Source: Parcubacteria group bacterium Gr01-1014_13
GTDB lineage: Bacteria > Patescibacteriota > Patescibacteriia > Magasanikbacterales > GWA2-37-8
DNA length: 64,000 bases
Assembly (NCBI GenBank): GCA_007376295.1
Contig: VMGB01000001.1
Coordinates: 80,424 to 144,423, forward strand
Direction of reading: 5' to 3'
The number at the start of each line of letters is the position of its first letter. The stretch's first letter is position 1. The position numbers and the translations under genes are program-made. Below, in pieces: positions 13,693 to 57,467 of this stretch. A model generated the notes under the pieces. That model was given only the letters and a program-made list of their open reading frames with translations, was not told the DNA's origin and did not search any database.

Positions 13693-13783
13693 TGGCGGAG
13701 AGGGAGAGATTCGAACTCTCGAGGGATTTTACTCCCTGCCACGTTAGCAGTGTGGTGCCTTCAACCATCTCGGCCACCTCTCC
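13693..13783 (-). tRNA. tRNA-Ser (anticodon GCU), class II with long variable arm, CCA encoded
   Basis: Reverse complement folds as a cloverleaf. Perfect 7-bp acceptor stem GGAGAGG/CCTCTCC, discriminator G, encoded CCA. Anticodon loop CU-GCU-AA, long variable arm, T-loop GTTCGAATC. Confidence 0.85.
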
Positions 13784-13889
13784 ATATTGTTCCGATATTC
13801 TATCAGAAAATCGTATTTAGTCAATGGCTCTCGACAAATTATTAATATCAAGTTAAACTAAAAATAATCTAAAGATTAACTTTAATATT

Positions 13890-13997
13890 ATGCAAAATCA
13901 GGAAGAAGATATTGACGTATGGGACGAAGTGGTTGATTTTACAAAAATAAAAAAAGGAGGGATAAAGGTAGAAGAGATTCTATCTCGTTTGTAGAAT
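13890..13997 (+). CDS. possible small acidic ORF (35 aa, MQNQEEDIDVWDEVVDFTKIKKGGIKVEEILSRL)
   Basis: Short ATG-initiated ORF in the 350-bp gap between tRNA-Ser and the island genes. No homology recognised. Confidence 0.15.
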
Positions 13998-14131
13998 AAT
14001 TTATAGAGTAGAGTATAGCCAAGTTTATTTGTTGGCCATAGAGAAAAGGAGCGAAAATACATATAAAGATATTTAAAAAAATAGCGTGGCCAATGTGTTA
14101 GCCACGCTGAAAGGACAAATTTATTCTTTTT

Positions 14132-14617
14132 CTAGAAACGATGTTTGATGTAATACCAAACGTCACCATTGTCAATCCACTTGCATACCTCTTGAAGAAT
14201 TATGGTTTCGACAGATTCTGCCAGGTTTTCGGCAGAATACACGCGTTGGTTGGAGCAGCGCAGGCCACTATACCTCCAAAATAGGCCGCTTACAGAAATT
14301 CCGAGTGAAACTTTCTCCGTTCCCATTACCTGTCCGTTAAAGAAGCATAGGTCTGATCCATGCGACGCCTTCATCAATTCCTTACCATCGTCGCTTTCTC
14401 TTAGCTCTGTGGCCCAGAGAAAAATCTTGGTTGCGTACTCCAAGCCATTTTTTAGTCTGGCGATACGAAGATTTTTTTGTTTTGCTTCTCTTTTTTGTTT
14501 GATCAGCTTCTCCGATTTTTCTTTTTTCAATCTTTTCTTGTATAATCTTTGAGCAAGCTCGTGGATGTCTTTAGGAATGTTGAAGGCGGTTTTGTCTGTC
14601 GGGACCTTCTTGTTCAT
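14132..14617 (-). CDS. hypothetical protein with basic N-terminus; possibly a third diverged paralog of the two upstream genes
   Basis: K/R-rich N-terminus ('KKRLKKEKSEKLIKQKREAKQKN'). Shares weak 'LW..E', 'NGQ' and 'LGIS' spacing with the paralogs at 14617 and 15250. Start overlaps the stop of the upstream gene. Confidence 0.4.
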   Translation of the reverse strand: MNKKVPTDKTAFNIPKDIHELAQRLYKKRLKKEKSEKLIKQKREAKQKNLRIARLKNGLEYATKIFLWATELRESDDGKELMKASHGSDLCFFNGQVMGTEKVSLGISVSGLFWRYSGLRCSNQRVYSAENLAESVETIILQEVCKWIDNGDVWYYIKHRF

Positions 14618-15225
14618 TAGCTATTTCCTTTTGAGGAGGTGGTAACTTTGTTGATTTTCATCAACTCTTCCAGAGCTTTTTTGTCTCTGGCTTTGTCCAA
14701 ATCATTGGTGCGTTCCACCGGAATACCAATAACTTTAAAATCTTCGCGGCCGTGTTTGAGCACGGGGATATTGCATTTTTTGGCCGTCTCTATGGCCAAA
14801 TCTTTGGCCCATTTATACAAAAGATCTTCCGACAACCTAATCTGGCGGTATCTGCCTTGTTTGGCATTTTTGTCTTGCCAGTTTAGGTCTATGTGCCAGT
14901 TACGACTGCGGTGAGGATGATGTCTCGAAGACGGACCAGACTCCCAAAGAGCAAGATGTGGCATTACCAGCAAAGCATCTCGGATAGCTTCGTGTTCCGG
15001 ATATTTATCCATTTGCGTCGGTTTGCATTTTTCGCAAGGCCGGTAGCCGCATTTGATAGCGTCTTTCCAGCTGGCAAAGAAAACACGGTTTTCTTTGAGC
15101 ATACGTTTACCAGACTTACAATCCAGCCGGCCAAATATTTTGTGTGTGGTATTACCGGCGTAGACACCAGGGATAAGAGTGATTATTTGCTCACCCTGTT
15201 TGTTTAGCAACTTGTACTGCTTCAT
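14617..15225 (-). CDS. Ada-type Zn-binding (methylphosphotriester-DNA binding) domain fused to an unrecognised conserved domain
   Basis: 'NTTHKIFGRLDCKSGKRMLKENRVFFASWKDAIKCGYRPCEKCKP' matches E. coli N-Ada as I recall it, except the first (methyl-acceptor) Cys is Gly. C-terminal half is paralogous to gene 15250..15633. SD 'AAGGAG' lies 6 nt upstream of the ATG. Confidence 0.55.
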   Translation of the reverse strand: MKQYKLLNKQGEQIITLIPGVYAGNTTHKIFGRLDCKSGKRMLKENRVFFASWKDAIKCGYRPCEKCKPTQMDKYPEHEAIRDALLVMPHLALWESGPSSRHHPHRSRNWHIDLNWQDKNAKQGRYRQIRLSEDLLYKWAKDLAIETAKKCNIPVLKHGREDFKVIGIPVERTNDLDKARDKKALEELMKINKVTTSSKGNS

Positions 15226-15249
15226 CGCTAACTCCTTGTGTAGTTTTTT

Positions 15250-15633
15250 CTAAAACGCAGAAGTGAACCTGATAGCTTTTTTGCTAGTCTGTAACTCTGC
15301 GACAGATTTTTTCTTTTTCGCGCTGGATTTTTTTGTCGGTACCCACAACACAGTGAATCCCACAACATCGTGCTCTATCACCGGCAGGTTATATGAAATG
15401 CCAAGAGCGATCGCAACCGGTTTTGCTTTATCGTATACAAAGTGATTTGTCAAACTAAGACAGCAGTCTATTGTTTGGCCGTTATTTTTTTCTTGCCAGT
15501 TCAGAGCCATATACCAGGTGCAGTCTGGTTTGTTGCGATCTGGCGGCGGACCTGATTTCCACATAGCAATGTGTGGCTTCGCTTCCAACTTTAAATTCTT
15601 CAAAAACTTTTTTTGTTTTTCTTGTTGACCCAC
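15250..15633 (-). CDS. stand-alone paralog of the unrecognised domain ('PH[IL]A[ML]W[KE]SGP...LNWQ[ED]KN')
   Basis: Motif-for-motif match to the C-half of the gene at 14617. Start set at GTG 15633, preceded by AGGAGG and clear of the ABC-F stop. ORF-track start is 15711. Confidence 0.45.
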   Translation of the reverse strand: MGQQEKQKKFLKNLKLEAKPHIAMWKSGPPPDRNKPDCTWYMALNWQEKNNGQTIDCCLSLTNHFVYDKAKPVAIALGISYNLPVIEHDVVGFTVLWVPTKKSSAKKKKSVAELQTSKKAIRFTSAF

Positions 15634-15673
15634 GAGGCCTCCTGTTGATAAATAGCTGATGTTAATATACAGC

Positions 15674-39240: not shown

Positions 39241-39268
39241 TTGACAAAACAATCAAAATGTGATAAAC
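39241..39268 (+). promoter_or_regulatory. putative promoter (TTGACA-16-TGTG-ATAAAC) for the high-GC gene
   Basis: Consensus -35 and a TG-extended -10-like element about 60 nt upstream of the GTG start. Confidence 0.35.
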
Positions 39269-39329
39269 TGCGACCTCAAGCTAGGGATTTACCCAAAGGC
39301 TTGAGATAACCCCGTTTCGGAGGATAACT

Positions 39330-39752
39330 GTGAAGAATTTGCTCATTTCTCTACTCATCTTGACCGTCACGATCTCGTTCCAACCGGCTTACGCCGACGG
39401 GTATGGGCTCGGGCGGGCCGAACTAAACAAGGTTCTCGAGCCTCTCCGGTCCAGCATCAACCGTTGCTACCTCGCCAATGCAGGTGAGCGCGGCGGTCGT
39501 CTGGATCTCACGCTCGAAATCAGCCGCTACGGCTCGGTGTACACTACTGATGTTTCTACACCAGATCTGCGCAACAAGTTCGTCGCGCGCAAGATCAGCG
39601 CCTGCGTTCGAGGTATCGTCAAGGACTTGGCGTTCCCGACACGCAAAGCAGCGACTACATCCAAGTTCTCGTACATCTTTCATAAGGCACGCTCCCCAGG
39701 CGATGGCCCGCAGCTAAGCTGCTGGAATCCCCGCGGTTGTCCGGGTAAGTAG
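39330..39752 (+). CDS. high-GC secreted protein with AgmX/PglI-C (TonB-C-like) domain; probable horizontally acquired gene
   Basis: G+C is conspicuously higher than flanks (by eye, not computed). GTG start with SD GGAGG. Signal peptide 'LLISLLILTVTISFQPAYA'. Pattern 'INRCY..G.LDLTLEIS..GSV...VS....FV..ISACV..V.DLAFP' recalls the Myxococcota-type AgmX/PglI C-terminal domain (from memory). Own promoter and terminator. Confidence 0.55.
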   Translation: MKNLLISLLILTVTISFQPAYADGYGLGRAELNKVLEPLRSSINRCYLANAGERGGRLDLTLEISRYGSVYTTDVSTPDLRNKFVARKISACVRGIVKDLAFPTRKAATTSKFSYIFHKARSPGDGPQLSCWNPRGCPGK

Positions 39753-39779
39753 CCAATATAACAAGTTGGCCACGACCCA

Positions 39780-39807
39780 AGGCTCCTTAACCAGGAGCCT
39801 ATTTTTT
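39780..39807 (+). terminator. rho-independent terminator (GGCTCCT-TAACC-AGGAGCC + T7)
   Basis: Perfect 7-bp stem followed by TATTTTTTT. Confidence 0.7.
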
Positions 39808-53000: not shown

Positions 53001-54632
53001 ATGTCTAAAACCAAATATATTTTCGTCATTGGCGGCGTGCTTAGTGGAGTGGGTAAAGGCGTCACCGCGGCTTCCATCGGCAGGATTTTAAAAAACCGAG
53101 GCTTTAATGTCTCGGTTATTAAAATAGATCCATATATAAATATCGATGCTGGTACCATGAATCCGCTCGAACATGGCGAAGTTTTTGTAACCGAAGATGG
53201 CGACGAAACGGATCAGGATTTGGGAAACTATGAAAGATTTTTGGAAACAAATATTTATTCTTACAATTACATGACTACCGGCCGGGTGTATATGAATGTT
53301 ATTGAAAAAGAACGCAGCATGTTCTATAAGGGACGTTGTGTGCAGGTGGTGCCACATATCCCTATGGAAGTTATTTCACGCATAAAAACTGCCGCGCAAA
53401 AAACTAAAGCAGAAATAATGATAATAGAAATTGGCGGTACAGTGGGTGAGTACGAAAACATTTTATTTTTGGAAGCGGCGCGCATGATGAAATTGGATGC
53501 TCCAGACGATGTAGCTTTCGTTTTGGTAAGTTATATGCCTGTGCCAAGCCATTTGGGAGAAATGAAGACTAAGCCAACCCAGCATGCTGCCCGTACATTA
53601 AACAATAGCGGTATTCAAGCTGATTTTATTGTCGCCAGAGGCAAAGATGAACTAGACAAGCCTAGACGAGAAAAATTAGCCTTTTTTTGCTGGTTACGAT
53701 CACAAGACGATGTAATCGCCGCGCCAGACGTGCCTAGTATTTATGAGATTCCTCTTGTTTTGGAAAAACAAAAATTTGCCGGTTTGTTGATGAAGCGATT
53801 AAAGATTCGACCACGACAGTTGATAGACAAGCGTTGGGATAATTTTGTGGCCAAGATGAAAAAGGTTAAGAAATCCGTAAAGATTGCTGTGGTCGGTAAA
53901 TATTTTGCTACTGGTGAGTATACTTTGTCTGATTCATATATATCTGTAATTAACGCCGTCAAACATGCAGCCTGGCATAATGGTGTAAATGCAGAAATGA
54001 CTTGGCTGGATTCTGAAGATTATGAAAAAAATCCAGAAAAAGTGAAAGAGCTTGGTGGCTATGATGCCCTGATTGTTCCAGGCGGTTTTGGTACCAGAGG
54101 AATTGAGGGTATAATCGCAGCCATTAAATATGTACGCGAGAATGATTTGCCGTATCTGGGATTATGCTATGGAATGCAACTAGCCACCATAGAATTCGCG
54201 CGTCATGTTTTAAAACTCAAAGACGCACATACCGTGGAGTGCGATCCAAAAAGTAAAAATTTAATAATCAATATTAACAATACTCAGGCAGATAATATAA
54301 AAAACGAACGCTATGGCGGTACTATGCGTCTGGGGGCGTATGATTGCGACCTTACTCCGGGTAGCATAGCCCACCAACTTTATGGTGCAGATAAAATTAG
54401 TGAACGCCACCGCCATCGTTATGAATTTGATAATAAATATAAAGCCGAGATGGAAAAGAAAGACATGGTATTTTCTGGTATAAATCCTCAATCCGATTTG
54501 GTGGAAATTATAGAATTAAAAAAACATCCGTATTTTGTCGGTGTACAATTTCATCCAGAATTTAAATCCAGATTTTTAGAACCACATCCATTGTTTGTCG
54601 GGTTGGTAAAAGCCGCGATTAAAAATAAATAA
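53001..54632 (+). CDS. pyrG: CTP synthase
   Basis: 'KYIFVIGGVLSGVGKGVTAAS' N-terminus. Glutaminase domain 'GLCYGMQ' and 'HRYEF'. Confidence 0.95.
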   Translation: MSKTKYIFVIGGVLSGVGKGVTAASIGRILKNRGFNVSVIKIDPYINIDAGTMNPLEHGEVFVTEDGDETDQDLGNYERFLETNIYSYNYMTTGRVYMNVIEKERSMFYKGRCVQVVPHIPMEVISRIKTAAQKTKAEIMIIEIGGTVGEYENILFLEAARMMKLDAPDDVAFVLVSYMPVPSHLGEMKTKPTQHAARTLNNSGIQADFIVARGKDELDKPRREKLAFFCWLRSQDDVIAAPDVPSIYEIPLVLEKQKFAGLLMKRLKIRPRQLIDKRWDNFVAKMKKVKKSVKIAVVGKYFATGEYTLSDSYISVINAVKHAAWHNGVNAEMTWLDSEDYEKNPEKVKELGGYDALIVPGGFGTRGIEGIIAAIKYVRENDLPYLGLCYGMQLATIEFARHVLKLKDAHTVECDPKSKNLIININNTQADNIKNERYGGTMRLGAYDCDLTPGSIAHQLYGADKISERHRHRYEFDNKYKAEMEKKDMVFSGINPQSDLVEIIELKKHPYFVGVQFHPEFKSRFLEPHPLFVGLVKAAIKNK

Positions 54633-54695
54633 TAAGGTCCCGGGTATAATTGACTACCATCTATATAGATGGTAGTCTTTTGTTTAGGAGGAAGT

Positions 54696-55817
54696 ATGAA
54701 GGACCAAAAAGAATTGATCGTCGATCTGGAGCCTTATCTAGACGGTAGTGTTGAAGGAACCAGACATGCTTGTCGTCGTTTGGTAAACATTTTGCACAAA
54801 CAGTCATTTGTCATTGTGTATGATCCGCGCGTTTCTAATGTTGATAATGACCGGTATCTAGACATGATGGAGCGATACTTTTCCCAGTCGGAAAAACAGC
54901 TACGGAAAGACGAGCGCCCCAAATTGCATTATCAAGTTGGCGTTTCCAAGGGTCAGGAAAAGCCTCGTGATCATCGCGCGTATATTTCAACTATGCGGCC
55001 TGAGCACTGGCCGCATATTACGCCGCCTAATTACAAAGGTGATCCGCGTTGGCGATTCTTCCGAAATTTAGGCAAGCCGCCATCGAAGACCAAATTTCCC
55101 AAGCTTAACGCTCAGCGCACACCTGTAATTCCGAAGGGGTTTGAAGGTGAATGGGCAAAGACCATGGACACTTGGGGCGAGAAGATGTTGGCAAGCGTTT
55201 TCACGATTGCTGAGATGATGGCGGAAGCGTTCGGACTGCCAAAGAGTACTTTTACCAAAAAGTTCGCTCATGCTCCACATCTAATTGCTCCCAACGGAGT
55301 GAATTTGCTGGACTATCCCGAAGGGACTGTTTTCAATGGTTTTCACTATGATCTGAATTGGGGCACCATTCATGGCCGTTCTCGTTTTCCTGGTCTTAGG
55401 GTCTGGCCGCGTGATGGGGCACCGTTTACGGTGCGTGTTCCAAAAGGGGCTTTGCTTTTCCAAGTAGCCAAACAGTTGGAATGGCAAACTGGCGGATATT
55501 TCCGCGCTGGGTTCCATGAAGTAGTGAATTTGCCCGACACTGTGAAGGCTGCGCAAGAAGCTGCGCGTACCGGACGTCCGCCAATCAGAGTTTCTTCAAC
55601 TGTTTTTGCTCACGTGGCGAGCGATCTGACTTTGCGGGTAGAAAAAAAAGTTTTGGAAAATGATCTTGGTAGCATAGATCATGCCTCTGAAGTTTTGGAT
55701 CTGCCGGCGGGTGAATCTGCCAAGCATCTTGCCAAGATTTTGCAGATGTATCCGCCCACCAAAGCGGGAGATCAGGTGCTTGGCGAACTAAAGGCGCTTG
55801 GTCTTAAGAAAGACTAA
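54696..55817 (+). CDS. 2OG-Fe(II)-oxygenase-superfamily-like protein (HxD...H), compositionally foreign
   Basis: 'FHYDLN' (HxD) and distal 'FHEV' about 55 aa later. Higher G+C than neighbours by eye. Strong SD 'AGGAGG' 4 nt before ATG 54696. Confidence 0.45.
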   Translation: MKDQKELIVDLEPYLDGSVEGTRHACRRLVNILHKQSFVIVYDPRVSNVDNDRYLDMMERYFSQSEKQLRKDERPKLHYQVGVSKGQEKPRDHRAYISTMRPEHWPHITPPNYKGDPRWRFFRNLGKPPSKTKFPKLNAQRTPVIPKGFEGEWAKTMDTWGEKMLASVFTIAEMMAEAFGLPKSTFTKKFAHAPHLIAPNGVNLLDYPEGTVFNGFHYDLNWGTIHGRSRFPGLRVWPRDGAPFTVRVPKGALLFQVAKQLEWQTGGYFRAGFHEVVNLPDTVKAAQEAARTGRPPIRVSSTVFAHVASDLTLRVEKKVLENDLGSIDHASEVLDLPAGESAKHLAKILQMYPPTKAGDQVLGELKALGLKKD

Positions 55818-55819
55818 TC

Positions 55820-56065
55820 ATGCCCAAGGAGGAAACCATGGTTATTACTGATCGCGACCCTGGAGATGAGGATATGAATACTGAAGATTCGGAATTGCTT
55901 CGGGCTATAGCCCGGTTCGAGAATGGCGATTTTACTCCCGAGGAAGAAGCTGAGATGAAAAAGTGGGAGGCCGAGGTTAATGCAAAATTAAGAGAAGGTG
56001 CCAGAGAACACGATTTGATCCTGGCTTGGTCAAAAGTGCACGGAGCAAACAAAGTTTATAAATAG
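55820..56065 (+). CDS. small acidic protein (81 aa) translationally coupled to the oxygenase-like gene
   Basis: Starts 3 nt after the upstream stop. Same elevated G+C. Followed by a GC-rich terminator. Confidence 0.35.
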   Translation: MPKEETMVITDRDPGDEDMNTEDSELLRAIARFENGDFTPEEEAEMKKWEAEVNAKLREGAREHDLILAWSKVHGANKVYK

Positions 56066-56078
56066 AGAGATTGGTTTA

Positions 56079-56108
56079 GGCGCGCTGGTGTGAGGCGCGC
56101 TTTTTTTA
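56079..56108 (+). terminator. rho-independent terminator (GCGCGC-loop-GCGCGC + T7)
   Basis: GC-only stem, TTTTTTTA tail. Confidence 0.65.
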
Positions 56109-57467
56109 TCTTCCTGCCAATCGAAGAATAGTATTGATGGTTCTAAGGATGATGGAAATATCTAAAGTGAAGTTGCGGTTTTTAATATAGTATAAATCGT
56201 ATTCCAGTTTTTGCAGGTTTTCCTCAATTGTACCGTAATAAGCGTTATTGATTTGCGCCCAGCCAGTAAGTCCTGGTTTTATTAGGTGTCGTAAAGAATA
56301 GTAGGGCATTTTTTCTGTAAGTTGTTGGACAAATTCTGGACGTTCGGGTCGAGGACCAATTACAGACATCTGGCCTTTTAGAATATTTATAAATTGCGGT
56401 ATTTCGTCCAGTCTGGTGCGGCGTAAAATTTTTCCAACCGTTGTAATGCGGACATCTTTGTCAGCCGCATACTGCGGCCCGCCGGTTTCGGCGCTTCCGT
56501 CAGCAGCTAAAGTCTTCATGGTCCGATATTTGTAAACTTTAAAAATTAATCCTTGTCTGCCAACGCGATTTTGGGAGAAAAATATTTTGCCTTTGGAGTT
56601 TAATTTTATAATCAAGGCGATAATCGGGAAAGTGACAATAAAAAATATACCAATTATTACGGCTAAAATATAATCCGTTAAAATACGGAAACGATCATAG
56701 ATTTTTTTCTGTTGTTCGTGCAGGTTGGCCACGAACCAGTTTTCAGAAAAAGTAAACGGGGGAATACGGTGCATTACTGTTTCATAAAAATCAGAAAGAT
56801 TTACGATGCTCACCTGCTGAAATAAACTTTGGTATAATTCTTTGAGCAGATTTGAATCGGCAGTCATCTGTGGTGAGAGAACGATAATATTCGCGTAATT
56901 TTTTGTTTGATTATTTATCTCGGCAATAGTTTTGCCATACGCTATATTCGGTAAAGAAGATTCTTGTTCACCGATTACACCAAGAACTAAGTAACCCAAA
57001 CGCGGATTGTTTTGAATATTATTTATCAGCTCTTTAACTTCAGCTGTAACTCCGGCAAAAATTATATTATATTTTAAAGTTGTAGAAATAAATTTGTTAT
57101 AAAAAAATCTCCACAAAGAGACGAGTCCAAAACCGATTATGGCTGTAAGTAATAAAATTGTTTTTGGGGTGATGGCGGTTTTTGGATTTATATAAAAATA
57201 GATTATCCCAAGAACTGTCCAAGCCAAAGCGCTAAGAATAATTTTTTGATAAAAAGCCCAAGAATTTTTGGTTTTGCTGATGTCGTAAAGACCGGCGATA
57301 AATAAAATAACCGCGGCTAGGAAGAATAGCTGGGTCATGGGTGACAACAGATCTTGTAAGTTTTGGCCGGGAATTTTTAGATAGCGAAAATAGAGAGCAA
57401 AATATAGGCCTATATATAAGGTCATTATGTCTCCAGTCAGAAGGGTGAGTTGTTTTAAACGAAGCAT
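56106..57467 (-). CDS. polyprenyl-phosphate hexose-1-phosphate transferase (WbaP/CpsE-type bacterial sugar transferase)
   Basis: Multi-TM N-half. C-terminal 'bacterial sugar transferase' domain '...DEIPQFINILKGQMSVIGPRPERPEF...KPGLTGWAQ'. Confidence 0.8.
   Translation of the reverse strand: MLRLKQLTLLTGDIMTLYIGLYFALYFRYLKIPGQNLQDLLSPMTQLFFLAAVILFIAGLYDISKTKNSWAFYQKIILSALAWTVLGIIYFYINPKTAITPKTILLLTAIIGFGLVSLWRFFYNKFISTTLKYNIIFAGVTAEVKELINNIQNNPRLGYLVLGVIGEQESSLPNIAYGKTIAEINNQTKNYANIIVLSPQMTADSNLLKELYQSLFQQVSIVNLSDFYETVMHRIPPFTFSENWFVANLHEQQKKIYDRFRILTDYILAVIIGIFFIVTFPIIALIIKLNSKGKIFFSQNRVGRQGLIFKVYKYRTMKTLAADGSAETGGPQYAADKDVRITTVGKILRRTRLDEIPQFINILKGQMSVIGPRPERPEFVQQLTEKMPYYSLRHLIKPGLTGWAQINNAYYGTIEENLQKLEYDLYYIKNRNFTLDISIILRTINTILRLAGR

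What the first reader, a model, noticed from the sequence alone, without database searches (positions are those of the whole stretch)
54660..56108. Second compositionally foreign cassette: 2OG-Fe(II)-oxygenase-like protein plus a coupled small acidic protein
Genes 54696-55817 and 55820-56065 are translationally coupled and visibly GC-richer than the flanking pyrG and sugar-transferase genes. They are preceded by a perfect SD (AGGAGG-4-ATG) and closed by a GCGCGC-stem terminator. The large protein has HxD ('FHYDLN') and a distal His ('FHEV') with the spacing typical of non-haem Fe(II)/2-oxoglutarate oxygenases. The 81-aa partner is strongly acidic ('DRDPGDEDMNTEDSELL...EEEAEMKKWEAE'). An oxygenase with a dedicated acidic partner, imported next to a glycan-biosynthesis cluster, could be a modification enzyme with a substrate/peptide partner (for example a RiPP-like or protein-hydroxylation pair). 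Together with the island at 13784-15640 and the cassette at 39241-39807, this is the third SD-plus-high-GC insert in 64 kb.
Basis: partly seen in the sequence, partly recalled or inferred. Interest (0 to 1): 0.55.

Follow-up and report, generated by a model that had tools for sequence, protein, structure and literature searches.

The report
Imported oxygenase beside a resident mini-protein
A Candidatus Magasanikbacteria (CPR) genome carries an imported, apparently active oxygen- and 2-oxoglutarate-dependent oxygenase of unknown substrate, sitting in a gene-swapping hotspot directly in front of a tiny lineage-specific helical protein; it is a moderately interesting accessory gene pair, and nothing supports a peptide-natural-product system.

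Summary
Two tightly packed + strand ORFs (54696-55817, 55820/55838-56065), a strong SD and a GC-stem terminator form the GC-richest 1.37 kb of the window.

ORF1 is a Fe(II)/2OG oxygenase of the IPNS/DOXC-like class. The AF2 model has pLDDT 87.7 and Foldseek matches 3oox, T7H and EFE. H217/D219/H274 and R298/S300 are invariant. It belongs to a small uncharacterised family found mostly in eukaryotes, with scattered Myxococcales and CPR members.

It sits in a variable slot between convergent pyrG and a Bac_transf gene:
- Relatives at 72-73% PyrG identity: empty in three of seven resolved junctions, with GH6 or NUDIX genes in others.
- Relatives at 81-84%: only the small gene.
- Closest relatives: oxygenase + small gene, or oxygenase alone.
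- One lineage: a non-orthologous 3oox-like oxygenase + small gene, with the same stop-TC-ATG junction.

The small protein family has only 11 clusters, and every copy whose context I resolved lies in this slot. Its acidity is not conserved.

"Foreign 2OG oxygenase" is supported. "RiPP or protein-hydroxylation pair" and "linked to the glycan cluster" are not. A functional partnership remains open, at roughly even odds. Substrate unknown.

The parts
54652..54685 (+). Perfect 13+13 nt hairpin (GACTACCATCTAT/ATAGATGGTAGTC) followed by TTTTGTTT. It is probably the pyrG terminator and lies immediately upstream of the oxygenase SD.
   Evidence: Terminator scan. Folds at -23.2 kcal/mol, z = -3.7. The hairpin is kept, with compensated arms, in L001, L006 and L107, but not in L103 or L098.
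54686..54691 (+). Shine-Dalgarno AGGAGG, 4 nt before the ATG at 54696.
   Evidence: Sequence. Conserved in L001, L006 and L107. SD-like motifs are rare before the other ORFs of the window: a 5-mer in 3 of 63, by a rough count.
54696..55817 (+). Fe(II)/2-oxoglutarate-dependent oxygenase, 373 aa, of the IPNS/DOXC-like class (DIOX_N-type N-terminal half plus a double-stranded beta-helix).
   Evidence: Pfam 2OG-FeII_Oxy E = 0.024, below the cut-off. PDB 3on7 3.7e-4 and 3oox 8.6e-4. AF2 pLDDT 87.7, pTM 0.90. Foldseek 3oox E = 3e-18, then T7H, EFE, HSL1 and GA2ox3. 340 homologues. dN/dS 0.07-0.16.
55344..55352 (+). Codons for H217-Y-D219, the HxD part of the iron-binding facial triad.
   Evidence: Invariant in the 21-sequence alignment of CPR and eukaryotic members. 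Aligns with HED/HGD of 3on7 and 3oox.
55515..55517 (+). Codon for H274, the distal His of the facial triad.
   Evidence: Invariant. Aligns with the HRV His of 3on7 and 3oox.
55587..55595 (+). Codons for R298-V-S300, the RxS motif that binds the C5 carboxylate of 2OG in this enzyme class.
   Evidence: R298 and S300 are invariant. They align with the RYS of 3oox. They are lost, together with both His residues, in the P0128 paralogue.
55647..55730 (+). Clade-specific insertion (about residues 318-345) in the C-terminal region of the oxygenase. Residues 326-339 are low confidence in the model.
   Evidence: Alignment A1: the insertion is present (shorter in P0006) only in the >=79% identity clade, which also carries the small gene, and absent from P0009, P0011 and the rest. 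pLDDT is below 50 at 326-339.
55820..56065 (+). Small helical protein, 81 aa, or 75 aa if translation starts at ATG 55838 with SD AAGGAGG at 55826-55832. It is a lineage-restricted orphan family.
   Evidence: Only 11 clusters in 5.8 billion proteins. Every copy whose context was resolved lies in the pyrG|Bac_transf slot. dN/dS 0.17-0.44. AF2: residues 1-22 disordered, helices at 23-35 and 40-73, flexible tail. No Pfam, NCBIfam, PDB, PADLOC or Foldseek match; the window copy also has no PHROGs match.
56078..56108 (+). Intrinsic terminator AGGCGCGC-loop-GCGCGCTT followed by T7. It closes the two-gene unit and abuts the stop of the convergent Bac_transf gene (56106).
   Evidence: Terminator scan and fold. 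The identical stem occurs in L103 downstream of its small gene.

Best explanation
The region is a two-gene accessory unit in a variable slot between the convergent pyrG and Bac_transf (priming sugar transferase) genes of a Candidatus Magasanikbacteria (CPR, class ABY1) genome.

Gene 1 is a horizontally acquired, catalytically competent Fe(II)/2-oxoglutarate oxygenase. It is a soluble enzyme of the IPNS/DOXC-like structural class. It should bind Fe(II) through H217, D219 and H274 and bind 2OG through R298 and S300. It should then use O2 to decarboxylate 2OG and oxidise (most likely hydroxylate) a substrate that is still unknown. A small molecule is the most likely substrate, because that is what this fold class typically acts on. 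It belongs to a compact, uncharacterised family that is common in eukaryotes, compositionally native in Myxococcales, and GC-rich relative to its host in every CPR genome examined.

Gene 2 is a tiny two-helix protein restricted to this lineage. It occupies the slot without any oxygenase in the more distant 81-84% relatives, so it probably predates the oxygenase there. It is now co-transcribed and probably translationally coupled with the oxygenase.

Shown: gene structure, fold, ligands, family distribution, the history of the slot, and purifying selection on both genes.

Inferred: 2OG/O2 chemistry, a small-molecule substrate, and transfer into CPR from a GC-rich donor. I put the idea that the small protein was co-opted as an accessory partner (adaptor or modulator) of the oxygenase at about even odds.
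For: Oxygenase identity:
- Ligand motifs align with those of 3on7 and 3oox.
- H217, D219, H274, R298 and S300 are invariant across CPR and eukaryotic members.
- AF2 gives pLDDT 87.7 and pTM 0.90.
- The best Foldseek hits are 3oox (E = 3e-18, TM 0.83), T7H, a Pseudomonas IPNS-like protein, EFE, HSL1 and GA2ox3.
- dN/dS is 0.07-0.16.

Family:
- 340 homologues were found. Those at 40-46% identity include plants, green algae, Acytostelium, Andalucia, a chytrid and stramenopiles.
- Only 152 clusters (50% identity) reach E <= 1e-30 among 1.84 billion representatives.
- Only 9 loci turned up among 185,579 prokaryotic species genomes: four Myxococcales, a Magasanikiibacteriota MAG and a few other MAGs.

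Foreignness and the slot:
- The cassette is the GC-richest 1.37 kb of the window.
- The oxygenase is GC-richer than its neighbours in every CPR locus checked. GC3 values: L001 0.375 vs 0.336; L006 0.569 vs 0.439; L003 0.743 vs 0.494; L004 0.917 vs 0.494; L108 0.616 vs 0.368.
- In Myxococcales its GC equals that of the locus.
- The slot is empty (45-64 bp) in L022, L023 and L029. It holds GH6, NUDIX, DUF559 or other genes in L024, L026, L031 and L020. It holds the small gene alone in L019/L098 and L097, the oxygenase alone in L006 and L107, and both genes in the window, L001, L017 and L018.

Small gene:
- 11 clusters in total, and every copy whose context was resolved lies in this slot.
- It is under purifying selection.

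Partnership hints:
- A non-orthologous 3oox-like oxygenase (24% identity; Pfam DIOX_N 1.5e-24; PDB 3oox 1e-59) sits in the same position before the small gene in L033/L103, with the same GAC-TAR-TC-ATG junction.
- Oxygenase-linked small proteins share the tail LA[WL]SKVxGANK[VI]Y[KR]. Stand-alone ones instead carry a Cys/His-rich tail.
- The oxygenase clade that has the partner gained a 25-30 residue insertion.
Against: - Pfam scores for this copy are below the gathering cut-offs (15.4 vs 23), so family assignment rests on structure and homologues.
- No member of the family appears to be characterised. Source names are 'hypothetical' or 'uncharacterized', so the substrate class is only an analogy.
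- GC3 in the window copy is just +1.1 sd. Part of the GC excess is amino-acid composition (GC1 0.585, GC2 0.405). The small gene is also GC-richer than its neighbours where it stands alone.
- There are no mobility genes, flanking repeats, or plasmid or phage relatives.
- The backbone of the family tree is unresolved (CPR clade bootstrap 67%, other groupings <= 56%), so donor and direction are not established.
- The partnership is weakened because the oxygenase works without the small gene in most lineages, the small gene exists without an oxygenase, and charge complementarity is not conserved.
- All the 'partnership' correlations trace to one or two evolutionary events.
Confidence: 0.6

Rival explanations
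1. RiPP-like or protein-hydroxylation pair. The small protein would be the dedicated substrate: the oxygenase hydroxylates a residue in its conserved, flexible C-terminal tail (SKVHGANKVYK). The product would be a modified peptide or protein.
For: - The two genes are tightly coupled.
- Two non-orthologous 2OG oxygenases are each placed directly before the small gene, with the same junction.
- The tail is conserved yet predicted to be disordered (pLDDT 43-58), as expected for a docking peptide.
- The tail type switches with the presence of an oxygenase.
Against: - The fold class (IPNS/DOXC-like; best matches 3oox, T7H, EFE, GA2ox) is known for small-molecule substrates (established knowledge).
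- There is no protease, transporter, recognition element or immunity gene. The slot holds only these two genes.
- The small gene sits alone in the slot in relatives that have no oxygenase.
- The oxygenase lacks the partner in L006, L107, L003, L004 and the Myxococcales loci, and none of the retrieved homologue proteins carries a fused small domain.
- The most obvious candidate target residue (His in SKVHGA) varies between H, Y, L and C.
Confidence: 0.12
2. Incidental neighbours. The slot between pyrG and Bac_transf is simply a hotspot for insertion. The oxygenase landed upstream of an unrelated resident small gene whose own function may be metal-binding or regulatory. The two share a transcript but have no functional link.
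For: - Slot contents are diverse across relatives: empty, GH6, NUDIX, DUF559 or a membrane ORF.
- The small gene stands alone with its own SD, and what looks like its own promoter (read by eye, not scanned), in L098 and L097.
- The oxygenase stands alone in L006 and L107.
- Charge complementarity is not conserved.
- Stand-alone forms have a CxC...HCPxH tail, which suggests an independent metal-related role.
Against: - Two of the roughly seven distinct slot contents are IPNS-like 2OG oxygenases. Both are the ones fused by a 2-nt junction to the short-tailed small gene.
- The short tail is found only next to an oxygenase.
- The oxygenase insertion at residues 318-345 co-occurs with the partner.
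Confidence: 0.3
3. Glycan-tailoring enzyme. The oxygenase would modify a sugar, sugar nucleotide or lipid-linked glycan as part of the adjacent Bac_transf/epimerase/glycosyltransferase cluster.
For: The gene is adjacent to the Bac_transf, epimerase, GT2 and GT4 genes.
Against: - The oxygenase is convergent to Bac_transf and has its own terminator.
- The glycan cluster is intact in relatives whose slot is empty or filled with something else.
- Other CPR and Myxococcales copies lie in unrelated contexts: PrmC, TsaD/DnaE, ECF sigma, MFS.
Confidence: 0.04
4. Not foreign. The gene would be an old vertical Magasanikbacteria gene whose higher GC reflects amino-acid composition or selection, not transfer.
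For: - The gene family occurs in several Magasanikbacteria lineages.
- The CPR sequences form one clade, with bootstrap 67%.
- The excess in the window copy is mainly in GC1 and GC2.
- Synteny is kept among close relatives.
Against: - The slot is empty or lacks the gene in relatives at 72-84% PyrG identity.
- The copies occupy at least four different loci.
- GC3 reaches 0.74-0.92 in genomes whose GC3 is about 0.49, which amino-acid composition cannot explain.
- The L006 copy is closer to the L003 copy, which sits in another context, than to the syntenic window copy (dN 0.154 vs 0.230).
- A member of the clade (P0013) lies on a high-GC contig.
Confidence: 0.08

Closest known systems
CC_0200-type / 'iron-ascorbate' 2OG-Fe(II) oxygenases (PDB 3oox from Caulobacter, 3on7), themselves of unknown substrate
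   Same: - Best sequence and structure matches: phmmer 8.6e-4 and 3.7e-4; Foldseek E = 3e-18, TM 0.83.
- Same HxD...H...RxS ligand set.
- Same DIOX_N-like N-terminal half plus double-stranded beta-helix.
- The replacement oxygenase in the sister lineage (L033/L103) is a true member of this group (3oox 1e-59).
   Different: - Only 15-16% identity over the structural alignment.
- The window protein is 60 residues longer, with insertions such as residues 318-345.
- It falls below the Pfam cut-offs.
- It belongs to a separate compact family, 100% bootstrap apart from the 3oox-like outgroup, with a mostly eukaryotic distribution.
Small-molecule IPNS/DOXC-class oxygenases: thymine-7-hydroxylase (5c3p), ethylene-forming enzyme (5lun, 6vp4), plant HSL1/GA2ox3, isopenicillin N synthase
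   Same: Overall fold and active-site architecture match, with Foldseek E of about 1e-17 to 1e-15. 2OG-binding RxS is present, as in T7H, EFE and GA2ox.
   Different: Sequence identity is 12-18%. No substrate-binding residues could be transferred. No biosynthetic neighbours point to any of these pathways.
RiPP or protein-modifying 2OG hydroxylases with a dedicated peptide or protein substrate (for example lantibiotic Asp hydroxylases such as CinX, or ribosomal JmjC oxygenases). Recalled from general knowledge, not tested against sequences here.
   Same: An oxygenase gene is immediately followed by a small ORF with a conserved tail.
   Different: Those enzymes belong to other 2OG subclasses (PhyH/AspH-like or JmjC). 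They sit with further maturation or export genes, or act on conserved housekeeping proteins. Here there are no accessory genes, and each partner can exist without the other.
Classical genomic islets at recombination hotspots between conserved convergent genes
   Same: The conserved flanks (pyrG, Bac_transf) carry alternative cargo in different strains and species. Composition is anomalous, and empty sites exist.
   Different: There is no integrase, tRNA, direct repeats or transposase, and no relatives in the plasmid or phage collections. The insertion mechanism is unknown.

Membership tests
2OG-Fe(II) oxygenase superfamily | Double-stranded beta-helix (jelly-roll) core fold | tested here: met
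   The AF2 model (pLDDT 87.7, pTM 0.90) has strands at 195-305. Foldseek probability is 1.00 to many 2OG oxygenases.
2OG-Fe(II) oxygenase superfamily | HxD/E...H facial triad for Fe(II) | tested here: met
   H217, D219 and H274 align with the ligands of 3on7 and 3oox. They are invariant in 21 family members. They are lost only in the P0128 paralogue.
2OG-Fe(II) oxygenase superfamily | Basic residue (RxS) that binds the 2OG C5 carboxylate | tested here: met
   R298-V-S300 is invariant and aligns with the RYS of 3oox.
2OG-Fe(II) oxygenase superfamily | Pfam PF03171 / PF14226 score above the gathering threshold | tested here: not met
   The scores are 15.4 bits (cut-off 23) and 13.0 bits (cut-off 27.3). 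Many homologues at 40-47% identity do carry precomputed PF03171 or PF14226 hits. This is a divergent subfamily rather than a non-member.
2OG-Fe(II) oxygenase superfamily | 2OG- and O2-dependent turnover | not testable with these tools
   Requires an enzyme assay.
IPNS/DOXC-like subclass (DIOX_N + 2OG-FeII_Oxy) | N-terminal alpha/beta DIOX_N-type domain packed on the DSBH, with nearest structures from this subclass | tested here: met
   All top 50 Foldseek hits are of this subclass: 3oox, T7H, IPNS-like, EFE, HSL1, GA2ox3 and His1. There is a weak DIOX_N hit at residues 8-94.
RiPP biosynthetic system | Precursor peptide with a leader and core, plus a dedicated recognition, protease or export function in the locus | tested here: not met
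   The slot holds only the two genes, between a terminator and a convergent housekeeping-type gene. No Pfam, NCBIfam or PADLOC hits were found for the small protein.
RiPP biosynthetic system | Strict co-occurrence of precursor and modifying enzyme | tested here: not met
   The small gene stands alone in L019/L098 and L097. The oxygenase stands alone in L006, L107, L003 and L004. No fused or adjacent small homologue was found anywhere else.
RiPP biosynthetic system | Post-translational modification of the peptide | not testable with these tools
   Requires mass spectrometry after co-expression.
Horizontally acquired genomic islet | Atypical composition relative to the host genome | tested here: met
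   The cassette GC is 0.480 against 0.404 +/- 0.026, the maximum in the window. The same direction is seen in every CPR locus checked.
Horizontally acquired genomic islet | Presence/absence polymorphism at a conserved site in related genomes | tested here: met
   Empty junctions of 45-64 bp occur in L022, L023 and L029. Alternative cargo is present in L020, L024, L026, L031 and L033.
Horizontally acquired genomic islet | Mobility signatures (integrase or transposase, flanking direct repeats, tRNA target) | tested here: not met
   No meaningful flanking repeats. No tRNA nearby; the window's tRNAs are at 13696 and 28150. No mobility genes in the slot.
Horizontally acquired genomic islet | Gene tree incongruent with host relationships | tested here: inconclusive
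   The L006 copy is closest to the L003 copy, which is in a different context. The CPR clade includes a member on a high-GC contig. However, the NJ backbone is unresolved, and no host phylogeny is available for L003 or L004.

The most novel reading that the evidence does not exclude
The small helical protein is a lineage-specific hub that recruits interchangeable 2OG oxygenases. Two non-orthologous enzymes were captured at the same 2-nt junction. Either its conserved flexible C-terminal tail is hydroxylated, or it steers the enzyme to a target. That would be a new, minimal protein-hydroxylation or peptide-maturation module unique to Magasanikbacteria, and it would use an IPNS-like oxygenase class not known to act on proteins.
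Probability: 0.13. Interest if true: 0.65.

Novelty: new member of a known kind. Interest (0 to 1): 0.38.

Why it matters
CPR bacteria are usually described as small-genome fermenters that depend on hosts. An intact O2- and 2OG-requiring oxygenase, kept under purifying selection in a Magasanikbacteria lineage, adds to recent evidence that many groundwater CPR are adapted to oxic conditions and carry O2-using enzymes (PMC12577380).

The enzyme belongs to a compact, uncharacterised family that is conserved across plants, algae and protists. A bacterial member with a defined genomic history gives a tractable entry point for finding that family's substrate.

The pyrG|Bac_transf junction is a clear example of a cargo-swapping hotspot in CPR genomes that lacks recognisable mobility genes.

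If the small protein proves to be a real partner of two unrelated oxygenases, that would be a new kind of oxygenase-accessory or substrate relationship.

Tried and rejected
- NCBIfam, PADLOC and PHROGs gave nothing useful for either protein.
- Pfam and PDB profile searches with the whole small-protein alignment returned only chance-level hits: SAICAR_synt, Skp1, RsdA_SigD_bd, zf-HC2.
- Foldseek with the small-protein model found no match.
- The afdb50 fold library was unavailable, so UniProt-annotated structural neighbours could not be listed.
- tblastn of the oxygenase against the plasmid and phage collections found no match.
- No flanking direct repeats were found.
- Gene neighbourhoods of the Myxococcales and other bacterial homologues share no theme: ECF sigma/FecR, JmjC, Lon-N, PP2C, DnaE, MFS. 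Guilt by association therefore gave no substrate hint.
- Charge complementarity (oxygenase pI 9.5, partner pI 4.6) looked attractive but is not conserved in the orthologous pairs, so I rejected it as evidence.
- I searched for a small-protein domain fused to oxygenase homologues and found none.
- Rooting the family tree with the 3oox-like enzyme left the backbone unresolved. I make no claim about eukaryote-to-CPR or CPR-to-eukaryote direction.
- Comparing host relatedness for L003 and L004 failed because the window has no orthologues of their flanking genes.
- Literature searches for a characterised member of the family found nothing. That includes a guess at Arabidopsis loci, which turned out to be ALKBH genes.
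Full report
**1. What is in the sequence**

- Two + strand ORFs lie between pyrG (53001-54632, +; CTP_synth_N and GATase) and a convergent Bac_transf gene (56106-57467, -). They are 54696-55817 (373 aa) and 55820-56065 (81 aa).
- A perfect 13+13 nt hairpin with a T-run (54652-54685) follows pyrG. Then comes AGGAGG (54686-54691), 4 nt before the ATG at 54696.
- The upstream ATG at 54669 lies inside the hairpin, and the homologue alignment does not support it.
- ORF1 stops at 55815-55817, 2 nt before ATG 55820.
- A second in-frame ATG at 55838 has AAGGAGG 5 nt upstream. It is the start called for the near-identical P0121 (75 aa).
- A GC-stem terminator (56078-56102 plus T7) closes the unit.
- The 1370-bp cassette has the highest GC of any equal-sized stretch in the 64 kb: 0.480 against 0.404 +/- 0.026.
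- Per gene, GC is 0.485 and 0.455 against 0.408 +/- 0.038. GC3 is 0.46 against 0.38 +/- 0.07.
The excess sits partly in codon positions 1 and 2.

**2. ORF1 is a 2OG/Fe(II) oxygenase**

- Pfam hits are sub-threshold: 2OG-FeII_Oxy E = 0.024 and DIOX_N E = 0.16.
- phmmer against PDB sequences finds 3on7 (3.7e-4) and 3oox (8.6e-4). FHYDLN aligns with HEDIN/HGDIN, FHEV with HRV, and RVS with RYS.
- An AF2 model built from 21 homologues is confident (pLDDT 87.7, pTM 0.90). The only poor stretch is 326-339.
- Foldseek against the PDB returns only IPNS/DOXC-class enzymes: 3oox (E = 3e-18, TM 0.83), thymine-7-hydroxylase, a Pseudomonas IPNS-like protein, ethylene-forming enzyme, HSL1 and GA2ox3.
- H217, D219, H274, R298 and S300 are invariant in an alignment spanning CPR and eukaryotic members.
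- dN/dS between orthologues is 0.07-0.16.
- I conclude the protein is a catalytically competent 2OG-dependent oxygenase. The chemistry is inferred from conserved ligands, not measured.

**3. The family**

- The word-indexed search found 340 homologues.
- Hits at 55-82% identity are unnamed metagenomic proteins. One at 49% is from a Candidatus Magasanikbacteria MAG.
- From about 46% identity downwards the hits are dominated by eukaryotes: land plants, green algae, Acytostelium, Andalucia, a chytrid and stramenopiles. Many lie on chromosome-scale contigs.
- Their names are 'hypothetical', 'uncharacterized' or generic.
- The exhaustive representative search gives only 152 clusters at E <= 1e-30.
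- A scan of one genome for each of 185,579 prokaryotic species found nine loci: four Myxococcales, the Magasanikiibacteriota MAG, a Verrucomicrobiaceae MAG and three unnamed MAGs.
- NJ trees put the CPR-type sequences in one clade (bootstrap 67%). The backbone between the CPR, Myxococcales-type and eukaryotic groups is unresolved.
- I therefore make no claim about inter-domain direction.
- I found no characterised member.

**4. Genomic history of the slot**

I fetched contexts through exact-protein look-ups and through a metagenome scan with the Bac_transf protein.

| PyrG identity to window | Loci | Content between pyrG and Bac_transf |
|---|---|---|
| 72-73% | L022, L023, L029 | empty, 45-64 bp |
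| 69% / 73% / 73% | L024 / L026 / L020 | high-GC GH6 hydrolase / NUDIX plus an unknown ORF / small membrane-like ORF |
| 81-84% | L019/L098 (P0279, named Candidatus Magasanikbacteria), L097 (P0280) | the small gene alone, with its own SD |
| 85% (48 aa only) | L031 | DUF559-type gene plus a 200-aa unknown |
| 88% (partial) | L033/L103 (L102: small gene and Bac_transf seen, upstream gene cut off) | a different oxygenase plus the small gene |
| 92% | L006 | oxygenase alone |
| not measured | L107 | oxygenase alone |
| 94% | L001/L017 | oxygenase plus small gene |
| not measured (Bac_transf 93%) | L018 | oxygenase plus small gene |

Supporting calls for the cargo identities are 31, 39, 69 and 86.

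- The window's gene pair is thus conserved in synteny only among close relatives. It is absent further out.
- The slot behaves as a cargo-swapping hotspot.
- No integrase, tRNA or flanking repeats are present.
- The oxygenase has no relatives in the plasmid or phage collections.

**5. Composition across hosts**

In every CPR locus checked, the oxygenase is GC-richer than its neighbours.

| Locus | Oxygenase GC3 | Neighbours GC3 |
|---|---|---|
| L001 | 0.375 | 0.336 |
| L107 | 0.455 | 0.405 |
| L006 | 0.569 | 0.439 |
| L108 (P0128) | 0.616 | 0.368 |
| L003 | 0.743 | 0.494 |
| L004 | 0.917 | 0.494 |

- In the Myxococcales loci the gene's GC equals that of the locus.
- One member of the 'CPR' clade (P0013) lies on a contig with GC 0.58.
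- The L006 copy is closer to the L003 copy, which sits in a different context, than to the syntenic window copy (dN 0.154 vs 0.230).
- Together with the at least four different insertion contexts, this fits repeated transfer into and among CPR genomes from GC-rich donors, with partial amelioration in the window lineage.
- This is an inference. A vertical explanation cannot account for GC3 of 0.74-0.92.

**6. The small protein**

- Its family comprises 11 clusters among 5.8 billion proteins, even when searched with a profile.
- Every member whose context I could read is in this one slot.
- It is a real gene. dN/dS is 0.17-0.44 where dS is estimable, and the core is conserved (E25, E34, E41, E50, L57, A61, L68, S71, G75, Y80).
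- AF2 predicts a disordered N-terminus, helices at 23-35 and 40-73, and a flexible tail (pLDDT 72.7).
- No family or fold match was found.
Family pI ranges from 4.7 to 8.1.
- Stand-alone members end in SRACRC[YF]xExGVRxTGxHCPMHTVYR, which is rich in Cys and His.
- Oxygenase-linked members end in LA[WL]SKVxGANK[VI]Y[KR], where x is H, Y, L or C.

**7. Are the two proteins partners?**

For:
- In L033/L103/L104 the position before the small gene is occupied by a different oxygenase. It has 24% identity to ORF1 and is a canonical CC_0200-type enzyme (Pfam DIOX_N 1.5e-24, 2OG-FeII_Oxy 7e-19, 3oox 1e-59).
- The junction there is the same: window GAC TAA TC ATG, L103 GAC TAG TC ATG.
- A terminal Asp is native to ORF1-type enzymes, including copies outside the slot. 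This suggests an in-situ replacement of ORF1 by the other enzyme, with the breakpoint in the last codon.
- Two of roughly seven kinds of cargo are 2OG oxygenases, and both are the ones joined to the short-tailed small gene.
- The ORF1 clade that has the partner also gained a 25-30 residue insertion.

Against:
- The small gene sits in the slot without any oxygenase in the 81-84% relatives, so it probably predates it there.
- The oxygenase does without the small gene in L006, L107, L003, L004 and the Myxococcales loci. None of the retrieved homologue proteins, eukaryotic ones included, carries a fused small domain.
- Charge complementarity is not conserved.
- All of these correlations rest on one or two evolutionary events.

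I rate a functional partnership at about even odds. A substrate or RiPP relationship is much less likely (about 0.12). The fold class is a small-molecule one, and no maturation or export genes are present.

**8. Relation to the glycan cluster**

- The oxygenase unit is convergent to Bac_transf and separately terminated.
- The glycan genes are intact whether the slot is empty or filled with other cargo.
- Other copies of the oxygenase lie next to PrmC, TsaD/DnaE, an ABC efflux system with ECF sigma genes, or an AI-2E transporter.
- Adjacency to the glycan cluster is therefore positional, not functional.

**9. Verdict**

- Its interpretation is partly supported. ORF1 is a compositionally foreign accessory 2OG oxygenase. 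Its 'dedicated acidic partner' is a resident orphan mini-protein of uncertain relation. A RiPP or protein-hydroxylation system is not supported.
- The oxygenase is a new member of a known kind: an uncharacterised subfamily of the 2OG oxygenase superfamily.
- Its context matters because CPR, including Magasanikbacteria, are now reported to grow under oxic conditions and to carry O2-using enzymes (PMC12577380).
- Interest is moderate (0.38). The substrate and the role of the small protein remain open.

Noticed in passing
L108 6001-7077 (also L109, L110); protein P0128 and cluster members P0281, P0282: Other Candidatus Magasanikbacteria genomes (GW2011_GWE2_42_7 and others) carry a 50%-identical paralogue that has lost the metal and 2OG ligands (H217N, H274S, R298S). 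It is probably catalytically dead. It lies between a MacB-type ABC efflux system and ECF sigma genes and is still GC-rich (GC3 0.616 vs 0.368).
   Followed up: partly
L004 8001-9053 (Magasanikiibacteriota MAG JAUSEN010000007.1): The oxygenase homologue (49% identity) has GC 0.676 and GC3 0.917 in a contig whose other genes average GC3 0.494. It is flanked by PrmC and DUF3048 genes. This is an extreme compositional outlier and suggests a very recent transfer from a high-GC donor.
   Followed up: partly
L033 715-1668 (-) and 500-712 (-); same as L103 626-1794 and L104: A sister lineage (Bac_transf 92%, PyrG 88% identical) carries a non-orthologous CC_0200/3oox-type 2OG oxygenase in the same slot. 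It is followed after 2 nt by a small-protein homologue, with the same stop-TC-ATG junction and the same downstream terminator stem as the window.
   Followed up: yes
L098 5001-5258, L019 6204-6459 (-), L097 5001-5279: Stand-alone small-protein homologues (85-92 aa) occupy the pyrG|Bac_transf slot without any oxygenase. They have a Cys/His-rich C-terminal segment (CRC...HCPMH) that is absent from the oxygenase-linked forms. It may be a metal-binding motif. The weak zf-HC2 and RsdA hits are not significant.
   Followed up: partly
L024 2389-3426 (-); L026 8438-8950 and 9098-9511; L031 506-1108 and 1246-1692; L020 8413-8640: In other relatives the same slot holds unrelated cargo:
- a high-GC GH6 glycoside hydrolase (Pfam 5e-59; slot GC 0.574 vs 0.458);
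- a NUDIX protein plus an unknown ORF;
- a DUF559 endonuclease-like gene plus a 200-aa unknown;
- a small membrane-like ORF.

In L022, L023 and L029 the slot is empty (45-64 bp).
   Followed up: partly
window 39330-39752 (+): This 140-aa ORF has the highest GC of any ORF in the window (GC 0.572, GC3 0.681) and no Pfam match.
   Followed up: no
It includes an ORF with an Ada Zn-binding domain (14617-15225, -). Its ORFs have GC3 of 0.47-0.49 against a mean of 0.38.
   Followed up: no
L014 316-1446 ('Verrucomicrobiaceae' MAG contig JAIYDP010000463.1): The tblastn match of the oxygenase homologue spans 365 residues, but the ORF breaks after 87 aa. It could be a pseudogene, a frameshift, or an intron-bearing eukaryotic contig that was mis-binned.
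   Followed up: no
window, all ORF starts: SD-like motifs are rare upstream of the longest-ORF starts in this window: a 4-mer in 9 of 63, a 5-mer in 3 of 63, and AGGAGG in 0 of 63. This is a rough count and start sites were not curated. The strong SDs before the oxygenase and the small gene are therefore atypical for the genome.
   Followed up: partly
L011 5980-7038 and L016 324-1337 (MAGs titled 'uncultured Gammaproteobacteria'): Two further bacterial homologues (38-40% identity) are also GC-richer than their contigs (for example 0.624 vs 0.517). L011 has DnaE directly upstream, which echoes the DnaE-adjacent copy in L003.
   Followed up: no
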